DNA from: Alphaproteobacteria bacterium
GTDB taxonomy: Bacteria; Pseudomonadota; Alphaproteobacteria; SP197
Direction of reading: 5' to 3'
DNA: 64,000 bases
Assembly: GCA_964291415.2 (NCBI GenBank)
Contig: OZ219920.1
Coordinates: forward strand, 1,280,001 to 1,344,000
Part shown: positions 59,331-61,825 of the stretch, piece by piece
How the letters are laid out: each line of letters begins with the position of its first letter
How positions within the stretch are numbered: the stretch's first letter is position 1
Made by a program: the position numbers and the translations under genes
The notes under the pieces: model-generated
Told to the model about the DNA's origin: nothing
Databases searched by the model: none
What the model saw: only the letters and a program-made list of their open reading frames with translations

Positions 59331-59545
59331 CATGCGCGGCGAGCTGACACGCATTATCCTCATTCTCACACGGGCAGCATTCCGTAGCCGAGACCATGCT
59401 GGTGGAGGTAAAGAAGCGCGTTGCGCTGACGTTCCGGATCCCTTTCTTCCCCATTGTGGTCATCCTGTCGGGCCGGTGTGTCGGCGGCTCGCAGCTGGCG
59501 GGTTGAAGAACAGCTCTTGTCGACCTGTCCTGGATTCTCCAAATG
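59331..59545 (+). pseudogene. probable decayed type I RM hsdM fragment (left of the tnpB element)
   Basis: Translates RGELT...RDHAGGGKEARCADVPD and, in another frame, PGFSK. Resembles the HsdM RELT..I..TYHAWRG...YADVPGFCK segment (recalled consensus). Confidence 0.45.
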
Positions 59546-59553
59546 AATGCATG

Positions 59554-59578
59554 GGGAATTGTATACGAAACTTGACAG
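59554..59578 (+). repeat. left terminal inverted repeat
   Basis: Imperfect inverted copy at 60858-60882. Confidence 0.75.
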
Positions 59579-59614
59579 AATAGACTTGACATCCAATGGT
59601 GTTATCGATATGAA
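59572..59614 (+). promoter_or_regulatory. candidate tnpB promoter(s)
   Basis: Two TTGACA hexamers (59572, 59586) with AT-rich -10-like hexamers 17 bp downstream (AATGGT, TATGAA). GGAG RBS before ATG 59656. Confidence 0.45.
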
Positions 59615-59655
59615 TTCGTGTCGTAAATCAGTGTTCGCAACACCGGAGTCCCCGC

Positions 59656-60855
59656 ATGTCGTCCTCTGTCGCCTATCGACAGATCACCTTTCGCCTGCTG
59701 CCCGAGAAACGCAGCACCTGGCGGCGGCTGGAGGCCATGCTCGACACGCAGCGCTGTCTCTACAACGCGGCGCTGGAAGAACGGATCGACTGCTACCGGA
59801 AGACCGGCAAGTCACTCACCTACTTCGATCAGGCGAAGTCCCTGACCGTGTGCCGCGAGGCGCTGCCGGACATGGCGGCGGTGCCGGTGGCCATTCAGCG
59901 CGGGACGCTCAAGCGCCTCGATCATGCCTTCAAGGGCTTCTTCCGGCGGGTGAAGCAGGGTGGGGCCGGGTTCCCCCGGTTCCAGGGACGCCGGCACTTC
60001 AACAGCCTTTCCGTGGTCTCCGGCGTCAGGGTCGAGGGCAGTCGCCTGCGCATCCCCGGCCTGGGCTGGCTGACCATCCGCCGCCGGGGCGGCAATCCCT
60101 GGCCGCAGGGCACGCCGGTGAGTGCGGTCCTCAAGCGCGAGGAGGGACGCTGGAAGGCTGTGGTATGCCATGCGGTGTCGCTGCCGGAATCCGACGACAA
60201 CGGCCATGCCGTCGGCGTGGACGTGAATGCGGGCCAGGTGGCGACCTCGGACGGGGAGATCCTGCGCCTGGAGAGGAGCCGGCGTCTCGAGGCCCGTGCC
60301 CGGCGCTGCGCCAAGCAACTGGCGCGGCAGCGCCGTGGCAGCAGGCGGCGGGAGAAGACGCGGCGGCGTCTGGCGAAGACCACCCGGCACATGGCCATGA
60401 AGCGCCATGACTGGCAGCACCACGTCAGTCGCCGGCTCAGTGAGACGGCCGGGACGGTGGTGGTCGAGGATCTGAAGGTCCGCACCATGACCCGCAGCGC
60501 CAGGGGCACGAAGGAGGAGCCGGGACGTCACGTGCGCTCCAAGGCGGGTCTCAACCGCGTCATCCTGGAGACGGGCTGGTCGTCGTTCCGGAGAATGCTG
60601 GACTACAAGGTTCACCGCGTCATCGCGGTGAACCCGGCCTACAGCAGCCAGACCTGTGCAGCGTGCGGCGTCACGAGCGCCCAATCACGCAGGACGCGGG
60701 ACCTGTTTCAATGCGTGGCGTGCGGCCATGCGGATCACGCCGACCTCAATGCAGCGGCGAACATCCTGGCCTCGGGGACTGAGGCATCTGCGCGGGGAGG
60801 TTGCCGGGTTGCCGGGCCTGTGAACCGCGAAATCGATCGGAGGATGGCAGCATGA
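59656..60855 (+). CDS. tnpB: RNA-guided endonuclease TnpB (IS200/IS605 OrfB family), catalytic residues intact
   Basis: R.LYN.AL, GFPRF, RuvC-I VGVDVN, RuvC-II VVVEDL, VNPAYSSQ.C..CG, C..CG and RuvC-III HADLNAA.NI. Confidence 0.95.
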   Translation: MSSSVAYRQITFRLLPEKRSTWRRLEAMLDTQRCLYNAALEERIDCYRKTGKSLTYFDQAKSLTVCREALPDMAAVPVAIQRGTLKRLDHAFKGFFRRVKQGGAGFPRFQGRRHFNSLSVVSGVRVEGSRLRIPGLGWLTIRRRGGNPWPQGTPVSAVLKREEGRWKAVVCHAVSLPESDDNGHAVGVDVNAGQVATSDGEILRLERSRRLEARARRCAKQLARQRRGSRRREKTRRRLAKTTRHMAMKRHDWQHHVSRRLSETAGTVVVEDLKVRTMTRSARGTKEEPGRHVRSKAGLNRVILETGWSSFRRMLDYKVHRVIAVNPAYSSQTCAACGVTSAQSRRTRDLFQCVACGHADHADLNAAANILASGTEASARGGCRVAGPVNREIDRRMAA

Positions 60856-60900
60856 CGCTGTCAACTTCTCGATATAAGTCCCCATGAATAATCAGGGCTG
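60765..60900 (+). ncRNA. predicted omegaRNA (reRNA) overlapping the tnpB 3' end, guide in the right flank
   Basis: Hairpin GCCTC-GGGGACT-GAGGC whose loop is complementary to the terminal AGTCCCC, a CGCGG/CCGCG stem, and a long stem ATCGA..GGCAGC/GCTGTC..TCGAT. Boundaries approximate. Confidence 0.65.
60858..60882 (-). repeat. right terminal inverted repeat
   Basis: Inverted copy of 59554-59578. Confidence 0.75.
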
Positions 60901-61081
60901 CGTGCTAACGTTGGGCTGCCATGCTGGCGCGGCTCCTGTGGAGGACGACGACGAGCCGTTCGAGGACAAGACGCTATGCCTCGTCAAGCAATTGCGTGAA
61001 CAGCAGGCCGAAGGCTCGCGGCTGTACCGGACTATCGAAGCGAGTCTCGAGGTGCTGGGGTTCGGGAGTGGCGGATCGTGA
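60884..61081 (+). pseudogene. type I RM methyltransferase HsdM C-terminal remnant
   Basis: VLTLGCHAG....DDDEPFEDK...L..QLREQQAEG.RL...I..SL..LGF matches the HsdM tail VLTPGRYVG...DDGEPFEEKM..L...EQ.AE..RLD..I..NL..LG. Confidence 0.75.
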
Positions 61082-61503
61082 CTATCGACACAACATTCCT
61101 GCGACGCTGCATCGGCGTGCTGGAGTGTGCCTCGGAGGAAATCTGTGCACACGACGAGTCGGACGACTTCGTCTACGACATCTATCGCGCGGCCTGCGTC
61201 AAGGAGTTCGAGCTGGTTCTGGAGCAGAGTGGCAAGCTGCTGCGCAAACGACTCGCGGCTTACTTCGCCAGCAATCGGCGGGCGGACCGTCTGACATTCA
61301 GGGATCTCTTCCGTCATGCCGGGAAACACGGCTTGATGGAACCGGAAGCGGTCGAACGCTGGTTCCACTACCGCGACAACCGAAACGATACCGCGCATGA
61401 CTACGGCAAGGACTTCGCCGAAGCGACGCTCAAGCTGTTGCCTGCGTTCATCGCCGACGCGAAGGCGCTGGCCGACGCGATCGAGGCGGGAAACGATGGC
61501 TGA
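61078..61503 (+). CDS. HEPN domain nucleotidyltransferase substrate-binding protein (HI0074 family), putative toxin
   Basis: YRAACVKEFEL.LEQSGKLL, F.DLFR.A and W..YRDNRNDTAHDYG (RX4H plus Y). Confidence 0.88.
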   Translation: MTIDTTFLRRCIGVLECASEEICAHDESDDFVYDIYRAACVKEFELVLEQSGKLLRKRLAAYFASNRRADRLTFRDLFRHAGKHGLMEPEAVERWFHYRDNRNDTAHDYGKDFAEATLKLLPAFIADAKALADAIEAGNDG

Positions 61504-61825
61504 TCGGCTGCATCTGAAACCGGAGCATCGCCGTACCCTTGAGGCGCTGTTGCAGAAGCACCTGCCCAAGACCGAAGTCTGGGCCTACGGCAGTCGCGTG
61601 GACGGTCGGAGCCACGATGGCAGCGATCTCGATCTCGTTCTGCGCGGCCCGGGCCTGAAGGAGATTCCGATCCTTCAGCTCGGAGACTTCGAGGATGCTG
61701 TGCGGGAATCGAGCATCCCCTTCCTGGTCGAGGCCCGCGACTGGGCCCGTCTGCCAGAGCGGTTTCATCGGGAGATCGAGCGCAATCATGAGGTGTTCTA
61801 TCAACACAATGAACAAGGCAAATAG
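61496..61825 (+). CDS. minimal nucleotidyltransferase (MNT), putative antitoxin
   Basis: VWAYGSRV.G.SH.GSDLDL, S.IPF.V...DW and F..EI. Overlaps the HEPN stop. Confidence 0.9.
   Translation: MADRLHLKPEHRRTLEALLQKHLPKTEVWAYGSRVDGRSHDGSDLDLVLRGPGLKEIPILQLGDFEDAVRESSIPFLVEARDWARLPERFHREIERNHEVFYQHNEQGK

What the first reader, a model, noticed from the sequence alone, without database searches (positions are those of the whole stretch)
59550..60886. TnpB carried between DDE-style terminal inverted repeats instead of IS200/IS605 ends
Seen: an intact tnpB (all three RuvC acidic residues and the Zn finger) with no tnpA, serine recombinase or other transposase. It is enclosed by two exactly 25-bp inverted repeats, GGGAATTGTATACGAAACTTGACAG and revcomp GGGACTTATATCGAGAAGTTGACAG (18/25 identical, ungapped), each abutting CATG. 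CATG could be a 4-bp target duplication, or the ends could be GGGG with an AT duplication. Known: canonical IS200/IS605 and IS607 tnpB elements have neither TIRs nor TSDs, which are hallmarks of DDE transposition. As I recall, GGnnnTTAT-like ends resemble the IS1595 family, although that family usually makes ~8-bp duplications, not seen here. Inference: this is a non-autonomous TnpB cassette mobilised in trans by a DDE transposase, so an RNA-guided nuclease has been re-housed in a different transposon chassis.
Basis: partly seen in the sequence, partly recalled or inferred. Interest (0 to 1): 0.85.

Follow-up and report, generated by a model that had tools for sequence, protein, structure and literature searches.

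The report
TnpB riding an IS1595-type transposon
An RNA-guided nuclease gene (tnpB) sits in a small mobile element with the inverted-repeat ends and 8-bp target duplications of an IS1595-family DDE transposon, not IS605 ends, and its insertion sites carry a one-sided G that looks like the nuclease's target-adjacent motif.

Summary
Window 59554-60882 is a 1329-bp unit with an intact tnpB (59656-60855) between 25-nt inverted repeats. Four more full copies in this genome share these exact ends in different flanks, each with an 8-bp target duplication. Seven relatives keep an empty site for one copy. The window copy's CATG is not the family duplication.

An IS1595-family DDE transposase element in the same genome has ends 23/25 identical to a cassette left end. 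No Y1 TnpA was found in 23 genus genomes. The same arrangement holds for TnpBs down to 35% identity and in Rhodothermales and Paracoccaceae MAGs. In one Rhodothermales MAG the DDE gene and tnpB move together as a 3.7-kb composite.

Covariation supports a pseudoknot between the last 6 nt of the element and a loop 103-108 nt upstream, the ISDra2 omega-RNA geometry. The guide should therefore start at the first flank base.

TnpB-bearing units have G just 5' of the left duplication in 59/62 insertions. DDE-only relatives have it at 13/42 ends. I read this as a TAM (about 50%).

TnpB inside DDE transposons, including solo copies moved in trans, was described in 2023 (PNAS). This is a new member of a known kind.

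The parts
59544..59545 (+). TG immediately 5' of the left flanking 8-mer. This is the position of the one-sided G (TAM-like) seen across the family.
   Evidence: G at this place in 24/25 genus cassettes, with T before it in 16/25. G in 32/34 Rhodothermales units. G at 13/42 ends of DDE-only elements.
59546..59553 (.). Left flanking 8-mer, where the target duplication should be. It agrees with the right 8-mer at only 5/8 positions.
   Evidence: row L050.
59554..60882 (+). The whole 1329-bp non-autonomous element (tnpB cassette).
   Evidence: Copy boundaries. Loose ends of other runs' contigs at 59554 and 60882.
59554..59578 (+). Left terminal inverted repeat, IS1595 type, with the inner TTGAC motif.
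   Evidence: It is 20/25 identical to the repeat of the DDE element at C2:49518; copy C2b is 23/25 identical.
59656..60855 (+). tnpB, 399 aa, with RuvC D189/E271/D363 and a CxxC...CxxC zinc finger intact.
60767..60882 (+). Predicted omega-RNA scaffold of about 116 nt, overlapping the 3' end of tnpB and the whole right repeat. Helix 1 is 60769-60773 with 60781-60785. The terminal hairpin is 60842-60850 with 60858-60867. The pseudoknot pairs loop 60775-60780 with the element tip 60877-60882.
   Evidence: covariation. Geometry as in ISDra2, where the pseudoknot pairs -5..-3 with -103..-105 (PMC10097598). No RNA ends were measured.
60858..60882 (-). Right terminal inverted repeat. It doubles as the 3' part of the predicted omega-RNA scaffold.
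   Evidence: It varies less than the left repeat among 10 close copies: mean pairwise differences 3.0 against 5.5.
60883..60898 (+). Predicted guide segment of the window copy's omega RNA (first 16 nt of the right flank). 60883-60890 is the right flanking 8-mer.
   Evidence: Inferred from the pseudoknot position. Not measured.

Best explanation
Window 59554-60882 is one copy of a 1329-bp non-autonomous transposon of the IS1595 (Merlin-like, DDE) family. Its cargo is tnpB and its omega RNA.

Shown:
- It has IS1595-type inverted repeats.
- Sister copies are flanked by 8-bp target duplications.
- Empty sites exist for one sister copy.
- An IS1595-family transposase element with near-identical repeats lies in the same genome.
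- No Y1 TnpA was found in the genus.
- TnpB has all catalytic residues.

Inferred, about 85%: the IS1595 transposase moves the cassette in trans by ordinary DDE transposition.

Inferred from covariation and the ISDra2 structure, about 70%: the right repeat is also the 3' end of the omega-RNA scaffold, and its last 6 nt form the pseudoknot. The guide would then be the 3' copy of the target duplication plus the next bases of the flank.

Inferred, about 50%: TnpB with this guide recognises only the unoccupied allele, which reads G or TG, then the 8-mer, then the flank. Cleaving it favours copying or keeping the element. On this reading, the insertions that persist are those that happened to land beside a G, even though the DDE enzyme itself shows no such preference.
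For: Copies and ends:
- Four further full copies in the genome (92-97% identity) share the window copy's boundaries.
- Their duplications are AAAAAATG, CTTCCTTT, AATCGGAG and ATCGACAA.
- Empty site: 7 of 7 orthologous loci in relatives carry the uninterrupted gene with a single copy of the 8-mer.

Genus survey:
- 34 tnpB loci were examined. 5 were dropped because no credible ends were found. With copy C2c this leaves 30 cassettes.
- Of these, 18 have 8/8 duplications, 4 have 7/8, 3 have 6/8 and 5 are worse.
- TnpB identity to the window protein runs from 35 to 100%.

Transposase partner:
- PF12762 hits twice in the own genome.
- The first hit lies in a 3161-bp unit whose repeats are 23/25 identical to a cassette left end.
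- It is an IS1595-family transposase by NCBIfam and Pfam.
- Six DDE elements with both repeats and 8-bp duplications were found in 9 loci examined in the genus, and 11 more in 20 loci across the class. None contains tnpB.
- No Y1 TnpA in 0/23 genomes.

Other lineages:
- A Rhodothermales MAG has at least 53 copies.
- 11 of them, with verified duplications, are 3.25-3.7-kb composites of DDE IS plus tnpB cassette.

RNA:
- The pseudoknot is 91.9% paired, with 3 of 6 pairs changed on both sides.
- Helix 1 is 100% paired, with GC to CG in 9/25.
- For the whole structure, 0/500 shuffles reach the observed score.
- The pairing is kept in other lineages.
- The ISDra2 pseudoknot lies at -5..-3 with -103..-105; here it lies at -6..-1 with -103..-108.

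One-sided G:
- 59/62 TnpB-bearing insertions against 13/42 ends of DDE-only elements, Fisher p 1.5e-12.
- The far side of the TnpB units shows no such bias (16/57).
- Composites whose left end is the same IS repeat as the solo IS still have G in 11/11, or 16/16 left ends.
Against: - The window copy has no clean duplication (5/8). No empty site was found for it, because its two flanks lie at different places in relatives.
- The right repeat is only 18/25 identical to the DDE element's repeat.
- One complete genome (G013) has three cassettes but no PF12762 hit.
- Own copies differ by 3-8%, so current activity is not shown.
- No RNA start or end was obtained, because only contigs were served. Rfam gives nothing.
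- The omega-RNA structure was drawn by eye from these same sequences, so the slid-partner control leans towards it. RNAalifold's own consensus found helix 1 but paired the terminal region differently.
- A TAM of one or two bases is unusually short for TnpB.
- The same-genome control is small: 4 solo IS with perfect duplications, 3/8 ends G, Fisher p 0.0012.
- Near-identical copies in the Rhodothermales MAG already show the G, so the bias acts at or soon after insertion. That would also fit a target preference of the insertion complex.
- Two decayed remnants (own C4:147769-147886, and one in G002) lose similarity right after the inner part of the right repeat. This is unexplained.
Confidence: 0.8

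Rival explanations
1. The one-sided G is not a TAM. It is a target preference of the insertion complex that arises when one end is the TnpB-type right repeat. In DDE strand transfer, the 3' OH of the right end attacks the top strand exactly between this G and the first base of the 8-mer.
For: The G lies next to the phosphate attacked by the right end (established DDE chemistry, applied by inference). Young copies of 95-99% identity in the Rhodothermales MAG already show the G in 32/34. That fits a bias at insertion. Only 1-2 positions are informative, which is short for a TAM.
Against: DDE-only elements with repeat tips very like the TnpB right ends show G at only 13/42 outer ends. I know of no DDE system in which the end sequence sets an asymmetric target base (recalled, not searched). 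The pseudoknot places the guide start so that this G is exactly the TAM-proximal base.
Confidence: 0.2
2. Nested origin only. An ordinary IS605/IS1341-type tnpB element (left end after TTGAC, right end at TCAA) inserted into a pre-existing IS1595-type palindrome or MITE, and the outer repeats are incidental to tnpB.
For: TTGAC and TCAA sit where IS605-like ends could be. Two decayed remnants keep the tnpB 3' end up to ...GTCAA(C) and lack the outer 18 nt.
Against: All full copies share the outer boundaries and have 8-bp duplications. The TTGAC motif is part of the repeat on both ends and is present in tnpB-free DDE elements. The association holds for TnpBs of 35-100% identity and in two phyla. 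The last 6 nt of the outer repeat covary with an internal loop. No Y1 TnpA in 0/23 genomes.
Confidence: 0.05
3. The guide lies inside the element. The omega-RNA scaffold ends at the terminal hairpin (about 60867) and the outer 15-17 nt of the right repeat are a fixed guide. TnpB would then target IS1595-type ends, either to compete with related elements or to help cut the end.
For: A conserved hairpin is followed by 15-17 nt that the helices I specified leave unpaired, in all subfamilies. The remnants end at this hairpin.
Against: The tip of this tail pairs with the helix-1 loop with compensatory changes, as the pseudoknot strand does in ISDra2. A fixed guide would match every copy's own right end. 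This model does not explain the one-sided G.
Confidence: 0.08
4. TnpB here is a domesticated or inert passenger (for example a TldR-like regulator) with no role in the element's spread.
For: TnpB is not needed for DDE transposition (established for transposases in general). No expression data were obtained.
Against: All RuvC and zinc-finger residues are invariant across 36-100% identity. ORFs are intact in most copies. The RNA structure is conserved, and the insertion sites carry an orientation-specific signature.
Confidence: 0.04

Closest known systems
DDE-transposase-associated TnpB branches (DDE-1 to DDE-6) of Altae-Tran et al. 2023, PNAS (PMC10691335; passages read, supplements closed)
   Same: TnpB lies inside a transposon with inverted terminal repeats. 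The 3' end of tnpB is close to one transposon end (27 bp here; within 250 bp in the paper). Solo TnpBs have ends nearly identical to transposase-bearing units and are thought to be moved in trans. In the Rhodothermales MAG the DDE gene and tnpB lie in one unit.
   Different: The text I could read names only IS630 (DDE-6). A 2026 review (PMC13565253) lists ISL2, IS630 and IS1031. IS1595 occurs 0 times in the PNAS main text. The supplement, which I could not open, may still hold this clade. The 8-bp non-specific duplication that becomes the start of the guide, and the one-sided G, are not in the passages I read.
IS1595 family of insertion sequences (relatives of eukaryotic Merlin); by recall from ISfinder, the ISNwi1 group with ends like ggnnatTAT
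   Same: [quoted passage not shown]
   Different: The window element has no transposase. It carries tnpB and an omega RNA, and its right repeat has a second role as RNA. The ISNwi1 assignment is recalled, not tested.
IS200/IS605 family, IS1341 group (tnpB-only elements)
   Same: Same protein family and size. The omega-RNA scaffold overlaps the 3' end of tnpB, with the same pseudoknot geometry as ISDra2.
   Different: IS200/IS605 elements have no inverted repeats and no duplications, and they insert 3' of a fixed 4-5-nt site that is also the TAM (PMC13565253). Here there are repeats, 8-bp duplications and variable flanks, and no Y1 TnpA in the genus.
Fanzor (eukaryotic TnpB homologues) in DDE transposons
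   Same: An RNA-guided nuclease housed in TIR/TSD transposons of several DDE superfamilies (PMC3627910 passages; PMC13565253).
   Different: In the solved Fanzors, the 5' duplication is part of the TAM and the 3' duplication is part of the scaffold. Fanzor1 has lost the pseudoknot (PMC13565253). Here the pseudoknot is kept, and the variable 8-mer would be guide, not TAM. Merlin is not named among Fanzor hosts in PMC3627910 (0 occurrences).

Membership tests
IS1595 family (as a non-autonomous derivative) | Terminal inverted repeats beginning GG, shared with transposase-bearing family members | tested here: met
   The window left repeat is 20/25, copy C2b 23/25 and the right repeat 18/25 identical to the repeat of the DDE element at own C2:46358-49518.
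IS1595 family (as a non-autonomous derivative) | 8-bp target site duplication | tested here: met
   Met for 4 of 4 other full copies in the genome, and at 6/8 or better for 25 of 30 genus cassettes. An empty site with a single 8-mer is found in 7/7 relatives. The window copy itself has only 5/8.
IS1595 family (as a non-autonomous derivative) | Transposase with Zn_ribbon_IS1595 and DDE_Tnp_IS1595 domains | tested here: not met
   The element encodes none. A partner is present in the genome: NF033547 at 187 bits, PF12762 and PF12760. The element is therefore filed as non-autonomous, not as an IS in its own right.
IS1595 family (as a non-autonomous derivative) | Mobilisation by that transposase | not testable with these tools
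   This needs a transposition assay.
IS200/IS605 family (IS1341 group) | No inverted repeats, no target duplication, insertion 3' of a fixed tetra- or pentanucleotide | tested here: not met
   Repeats and 8-bp duplications are present. Only one or two flank positions are conserved.
IS200/IS605 family (IS1341 group) | Y1 (HUH) TnpA available in cis or in trans | tested here: not met
   PF01797 in 0 of 23 genus genomes; the control rang in 6 of 14.
TnpB RNA-guided nucleases (OMEGA) | RuvC D-E-D triad, zinc finger, family profile above cut-off | tested here: met
TnpB RNA-guided nucleases (OMEGA) | Omega RNA from the 3' end of the gene, with a pseudoknot next to the guide | tested here: inconclusive
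   Covariation supports helix 1 and the pseudoknot, and the geometry matches ISDra2. No transcript ends are available and Rfam gives no match.
TnpB RNA-guided nucleases (OMEGA) | TAM-dependent cleavage of guide-matched DNA | not testable with these tools
   There is only the indirect insertion-site signature.
DDE-associated TnpB branches (Altae-Tran 2023) | TnpB within inverted terminal repeats of a DDE transposon, 3' end near one end, solo forms with the same ends | tested here: met
   Placement in one of the branches DDE-1 to DDE-6 could not be tested because the supplements are closed.

The most novel reading that the evidence does not exclude
The insertion sites are a natural record of TnpB at work on a DDE transposon. 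The IS1595 transposase inserts without regard to the base 5' of its 8-bp staggered cut. Units that carry tnpB are nevertheless found almost only where that base is G (TG in some subfamilies).

The right inverted repeat is at the same time the pseudoknot strand of the omega RNA, and the duplicated 8-mer is the first half of the guide. On this reading, RNA-guided cleavage of the empty allele (homing or drive) decides which insertions of a cut-and-paste element persist, with a TAM of only one or two bases.
Probability: 0.45. Interest if true: 0.8.

Novelty: new member of a known kind. Interest (0 to 1): 0.6.

Why it matters
In IS605 elements the TAM equals the TnpA target site. Genomes therefore cannot show whether TnpB itself shapes where copies survive.

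Here the transposase and the nuclease have separable preferences. tnpB-free elements of the same family, one of them in the same genome with the same left end, serve as built-in controls. This makes a debated question directly testable: does TnpB help DDE (double-strand-break) transposons at all? The 2026 review PMC13565253 argues that the benefit may be small.

The system also offers a compact TnpB with a possibly minimal TAM. And it shows how one 25-nt sequence can serve both as a transposase binding site in DNA and as guide-RNA scaffold in RNA.

If the G turns out to be a property of the insertion complex instead, the finding is simply one more DDE family that carries TnpB.

Tried and rejected
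- Nested IS605-in-palindrome reading. I took it seriously, where a remnant stops at ...GTCAA. I rejected it for present-day mobility; see the rivals.
- Remnant as a stand-alone omega RNA with a new guide. The 20 nt after the remnant have no second match in the genome beyond chance-level 14-mers with 2 mismatches.
- RNA evidence. The look-up of sequencing runs gave 4 runs, all served as contigs. Laying them gave no RNA starts or ends. One contig of an RNA library runs from inside the element 145 nt into a different flank, but such libraries may hold DNA, so I do not count it.
- Rfam: 0 matches at E up to 1.
- Promoter and terminator scan: 0 sites.
- Empty site for the window copy: not found. 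The left-flank gene and the right-flank genes lie at unlinked places in relatives. A 4-nt loss at the right junction would turn an 8-bp duplication into the observed CATG, but I could not test this.
- RNAalifold on 26 right ends recovered helix 1 but gave a long-range pairing for the terminal region. I did not adopt that pairing. The structure tested was specified by me.
- Automatic end-finding failed for 5 of 34 genus tnpB loci (L060, L069, L070, L075, L077) and for 9 of 20 class-level DDE loci. These were left out of the counts.
- In one search, 16 of 50 Rhodothermales rows had duplications below 7/8 and were left out. The labels 'cassette' and 'composite' in that output are unreliable, so I sorted the rows by length.
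- Supplements of PMC10691335 could not be read. They may already list this clade or IS1595.
- Literature searches for prior description: TnpB+IS1595 gave 9 papers, none on this. TnpB+ISXO2 gave 0. ISNwi1 gave 2 unrelated papers. TnpB + TIR + TSD + DDE gave 17.
Full report
What is in the window. One search shows a left repeat at 59554-59578 and a right repeat at 60858-60882. They are 18/25 identical as inverted repeats, and each is next to CATG. The repeat finder ranks the pair first. Between them lies one long ORF, 59656-60855, 399 aa. It is a TnpB by Pfam OrfB_IS605 and Cas12f1-like_TNB and by NCBIfam guided_TnpB at 205 bits. It aligns end to end with ISDra2 TnpB (8h1j, E 2e-33). In an alignment of seven clade members of 36-100% identity, D189, E271, D363 and four zinc-finger cysteines are invariant.

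The unit is a repeated, bounded element. The own genome (5 contigs, 4.44 Mb) holds four more full-length copies at 92-97% identity and one 400-bp left-end fragment. All begin and end exactly where the window copy's repeats do, and all lie in unrelated flanks. The four have 8-bp direct repeats of the flank: AAAAAATG, CTTCCTTT, AATCGGAG and ATCGACAA. One copy is itself split by a 1805-bp insert that encodes an IS110-family transposase. For the ATCGACAA copy, which interrupts an oxygenase-like gene, 7 of 7 orthologous loci in related genomes are uninterrupted and hold the 8-mer once. The window copy is the odd one out. Its two flanking 8-mers agree at 5/8 positions, and its left and right flanks are not neighbours in any relative. 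It probably sits at a later rearrangement or small deletion. CATG is not the family's duplication.

Who moves it. PF12762 (DDE_Tnp_IS1595) hits twice in the own genome. One gene (327 aa; NF033547 at 187 bits; Pfam DDE_Tnp_IS1595 plus Zn_ribbon_IS1595) lies in a 3161-bp unit at C2:46358-49518. Its repeats are 23/25 identical to the left end of cassette copy C2b and 20/25 to the window's left end. In the genus, 17 of 22 relatives have PF12762 hits and 11 of 22 have clade TnpBs at E of 1e-20 or better. Six DDE elements with both repeats and 8-bp duplications were resolved in 9 loci, and 11 more in 20 loci from other Alphaproteobacteria. They are 1.8-3.9 kb, often carry other passenger ORFs, and none holds tnpB. 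No Y1 TnpA was found in 0 of 23 genus genomes, while the control rang in 6 of 14. According to the introduction of PMC8101967, the IS1595 family is flanked by 8-bp duplications and has exactly these two transposase domains, and its eukaryotic relatives (Merlin) have terminal GG. My memory that the ends fit ISfinder's ISNwi1 group is recall only.

The association is old and wide. Of 34 genus tnpB loci, 29 gave credible ends. With the split copy this makes 30 cassettes: 18 have 8/8 duplications, 4 have 7/8, 3 have 6/8 and 5 are worse. Their TnpBs are 35-100% identical to the window protein, and the repeat subtypes track those of DDE elements in the same genus. Within the order, the clade was found only in this genus (0 of 10 other genomes at E of 1e-40 or better). 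A scan of one genome per species found 452 relatives. Among the best 80 are a Rhodothermales MAG with at least 53 copies, a second Rhodothermales MAG, two Paracoccaceae MAGs and other alphaproteobacterial MAGs. Where the ends could be resolved they have the same kind of repeats and 8-bp duplications. In the first Rhodothermales MAG, 11 copies with verified duplications are composites of 3.25-3.7 kb. Each composite is a 1775-bp IS1595-family IS, a spacer, and then the tnpB cassette, and it moved as one unit. 17 of 30 copies of that IS are in this arrangement. DDE gene and tnpB are thus linked in cis there and in trans here.

Where the guide should be. The last 160 nt of 26 cassettes align across subfamilies. 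Three elements were tested on that alignment:
- Helix 1 (window 60769-60773 with 60781-60785) is 100% paired, with GC changed to CG in 9 of 25 distinct rows.
- A terminal hairpin (60842-60850 with 60858-60867) is 77.6% paired.
- A pseudoknot between the helix-1 loop (60775-60780) and the last six bases of the element (60877-60882) is 91.9% paired, and three of its six pairs change on both sides.

No shuffle in 500 reaches the observed score, and slid partners fall to 32-48% paired. I drew this structure from the same sequences, so those controls lean towards it. Other lineages keep the loop-tip pairing, with further compensating changes: 6/6 in a second Rhodothermales MAG and in another alphaproteobacterial MAG, and 5/6 in two others. 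In the ISDra2 structure the 116-nt scaffold has its pseudoknot between -5..-3 and -103..-105, and the guide follows at +1 (PMC10097598, section on omega-RNA architecture). Here the partners are -6..-1 and -103..-108, counted from the element's last base. By this homology the right repeat is the 3' end of the scaffold. The guide is then the 3' copy of the duplication plus the flank. The right repeat also varies less than the left among ten close copies, with mean pairwise differences of 3.0 against 5.5.

The one-sided G. If the guide starts at the 3' duplication, the base just 5' of the 8-mer in the unoccupied site is where a TAM would end.
- That base is G in 24 of 25 genus cassettes with duplications of 6/8 or better, and T precedes it in 16 of 25.
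- It is G in 32 of 34 Rhodothermales units with 7/8 or better, and in 3 of 3 clean cases from other lineages.
- The mirror position on the other side shows nothing (C in 16 of 57).
- DDE-only elements of the same family have G at 13 of 42 outer ends.
- The difference is 59/62 against 13/42, Fisher p 1.5e-12.

The Rhodothermales composites give the sharpest control. Their left end is the very repeat of the solo IS. They still have G in 11 of 11 (16 of 16 left ends), while four solo IS with perfect duplications have G at 3 of 8 ends (p 0.0012). The G therefore goes with the tnpB-bearing right end up to 3.7 kb away, and the two meet only in the empty site. I read it as a TAM at about 50%. The main rival, at about 20%, is an asymmetric target preference of the insertion complex, because the right end's 3' OH attacks next to this G. 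The six empty sites with TG and one with TC show the predicted target in relatives.

What remains open. No RNA ends were obtained, because only contigs were served. Those contigs do confirm the element's two boundaries in other insertion contexts. Rfam has no match. Two decayed remnants lose similarity just after the inner part of the right repeat, and I have no explanation for this. One complete genome has cassettes but no DDE hit.

Comparison with what is known. The IS200/IS605 and IS607 families lack inverted repeats and duplications (PMC13565253), so the element fails that membership test. TnpB in DDE transposons is, however, in print. Altae-Tran et al. 2023 (PMC10691335; passages read) describe DDE-associated branches, all with inverted terminal repeats. 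[quoted passage not shown] Only IS630 is named in the text. The 2026 review adds ISL2 and IS1031. IS1595 is not in the PNAS main text (0 occurrences). My searches found nothing that joins TnpB with IS1595 or ISXO2. The closed supplements may hold it. I therefore file the element as a new member of a known kind. The separable points I did not find in the passages read are the pseudoknot-in-the-repeat architecture, the duplicated 8-mer as the start of the guide, and the insertion-site G with its tnpB-free controls.

Verdict. Core confidence is 0.8 and interest is 0.6.

Noticed in passing
own genome C2:85682-87486 (L021 1682-3486): A 1805-bp insert splits tnpB of one cassette copy. It encodes an IS110-family (bridge-RNA type) transposase, NF033542 at 169.5 bits.
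   Followed up: partly
own genome C2:344481-344778 and about C4:1169.2-1169.6k: Two MITE-like units of about 298 bp have IS1595-type repeats of the GTCAC subtype. The first has a 7/8 duplication. They carry 68 bp homologous to window 60768-60835, the helix-1/pseudoknot-loop part of the predicted omega RNA, apparently inverted relative to the repeat polarity.
   Followed up: partly
own genome C2:46358-49518 (L020 1358-4518): The autonomous IS1595-family element carries a 464-aa passenger ORF (lipoprotein-like N-terminus, no Pfam or NCBIfam hit) and a small ORF. A second, divergent IS1595 transposase gene (321 aa) starts 10 bp beyond its right end.
   Followed up: partly
own genome C4:147769-147886; G002:C1:3198224-3198707: Decayed tnpB remnants with internal deletions. 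Their similarity to the cassette stops just after the inner part of the right repeat (...GTCAA/C). The outer 18 nt are missing in both, and the two lie in unrelated flanks.
   Followed up: partly
window 61078-61825: A HEPN-like/nucleotidyltransferase gene pair lies right of the element (PF08780 NTase_sub_bind, then NTP_transf_2). It looks like a toxin-antitoxin module. It sits at unlinked places in relatives.
   Followed up: no
window 59416-59492: A stretch of about 65-75 bp in the left flank recurs at about 80% identity in several places in related genomes (three in G004, and others in G002, G006 and G010). It may be a small dispersed repeat.
   Followed up: no
L144-L208 (record OY760427.1, Rhodothermales MAG): A burst of at least 53 tnpB copies and about 33 copies of a 1775-bp IS1595-family IS in one 5.9-Mb genome. 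tnpB there ends 5 nt before the element's last base, so the right repeat lies inside the coding sequence. A second repeat-like site 179 bp inside the left end gives a 1278-bp variant.
   Followed up: partly
runs X1 and X2: Contigs from two sponge metatranscriptome libraries hold the element in other insertion contexts, so the family occurs in sponge-associated communities.
   Followed up: no
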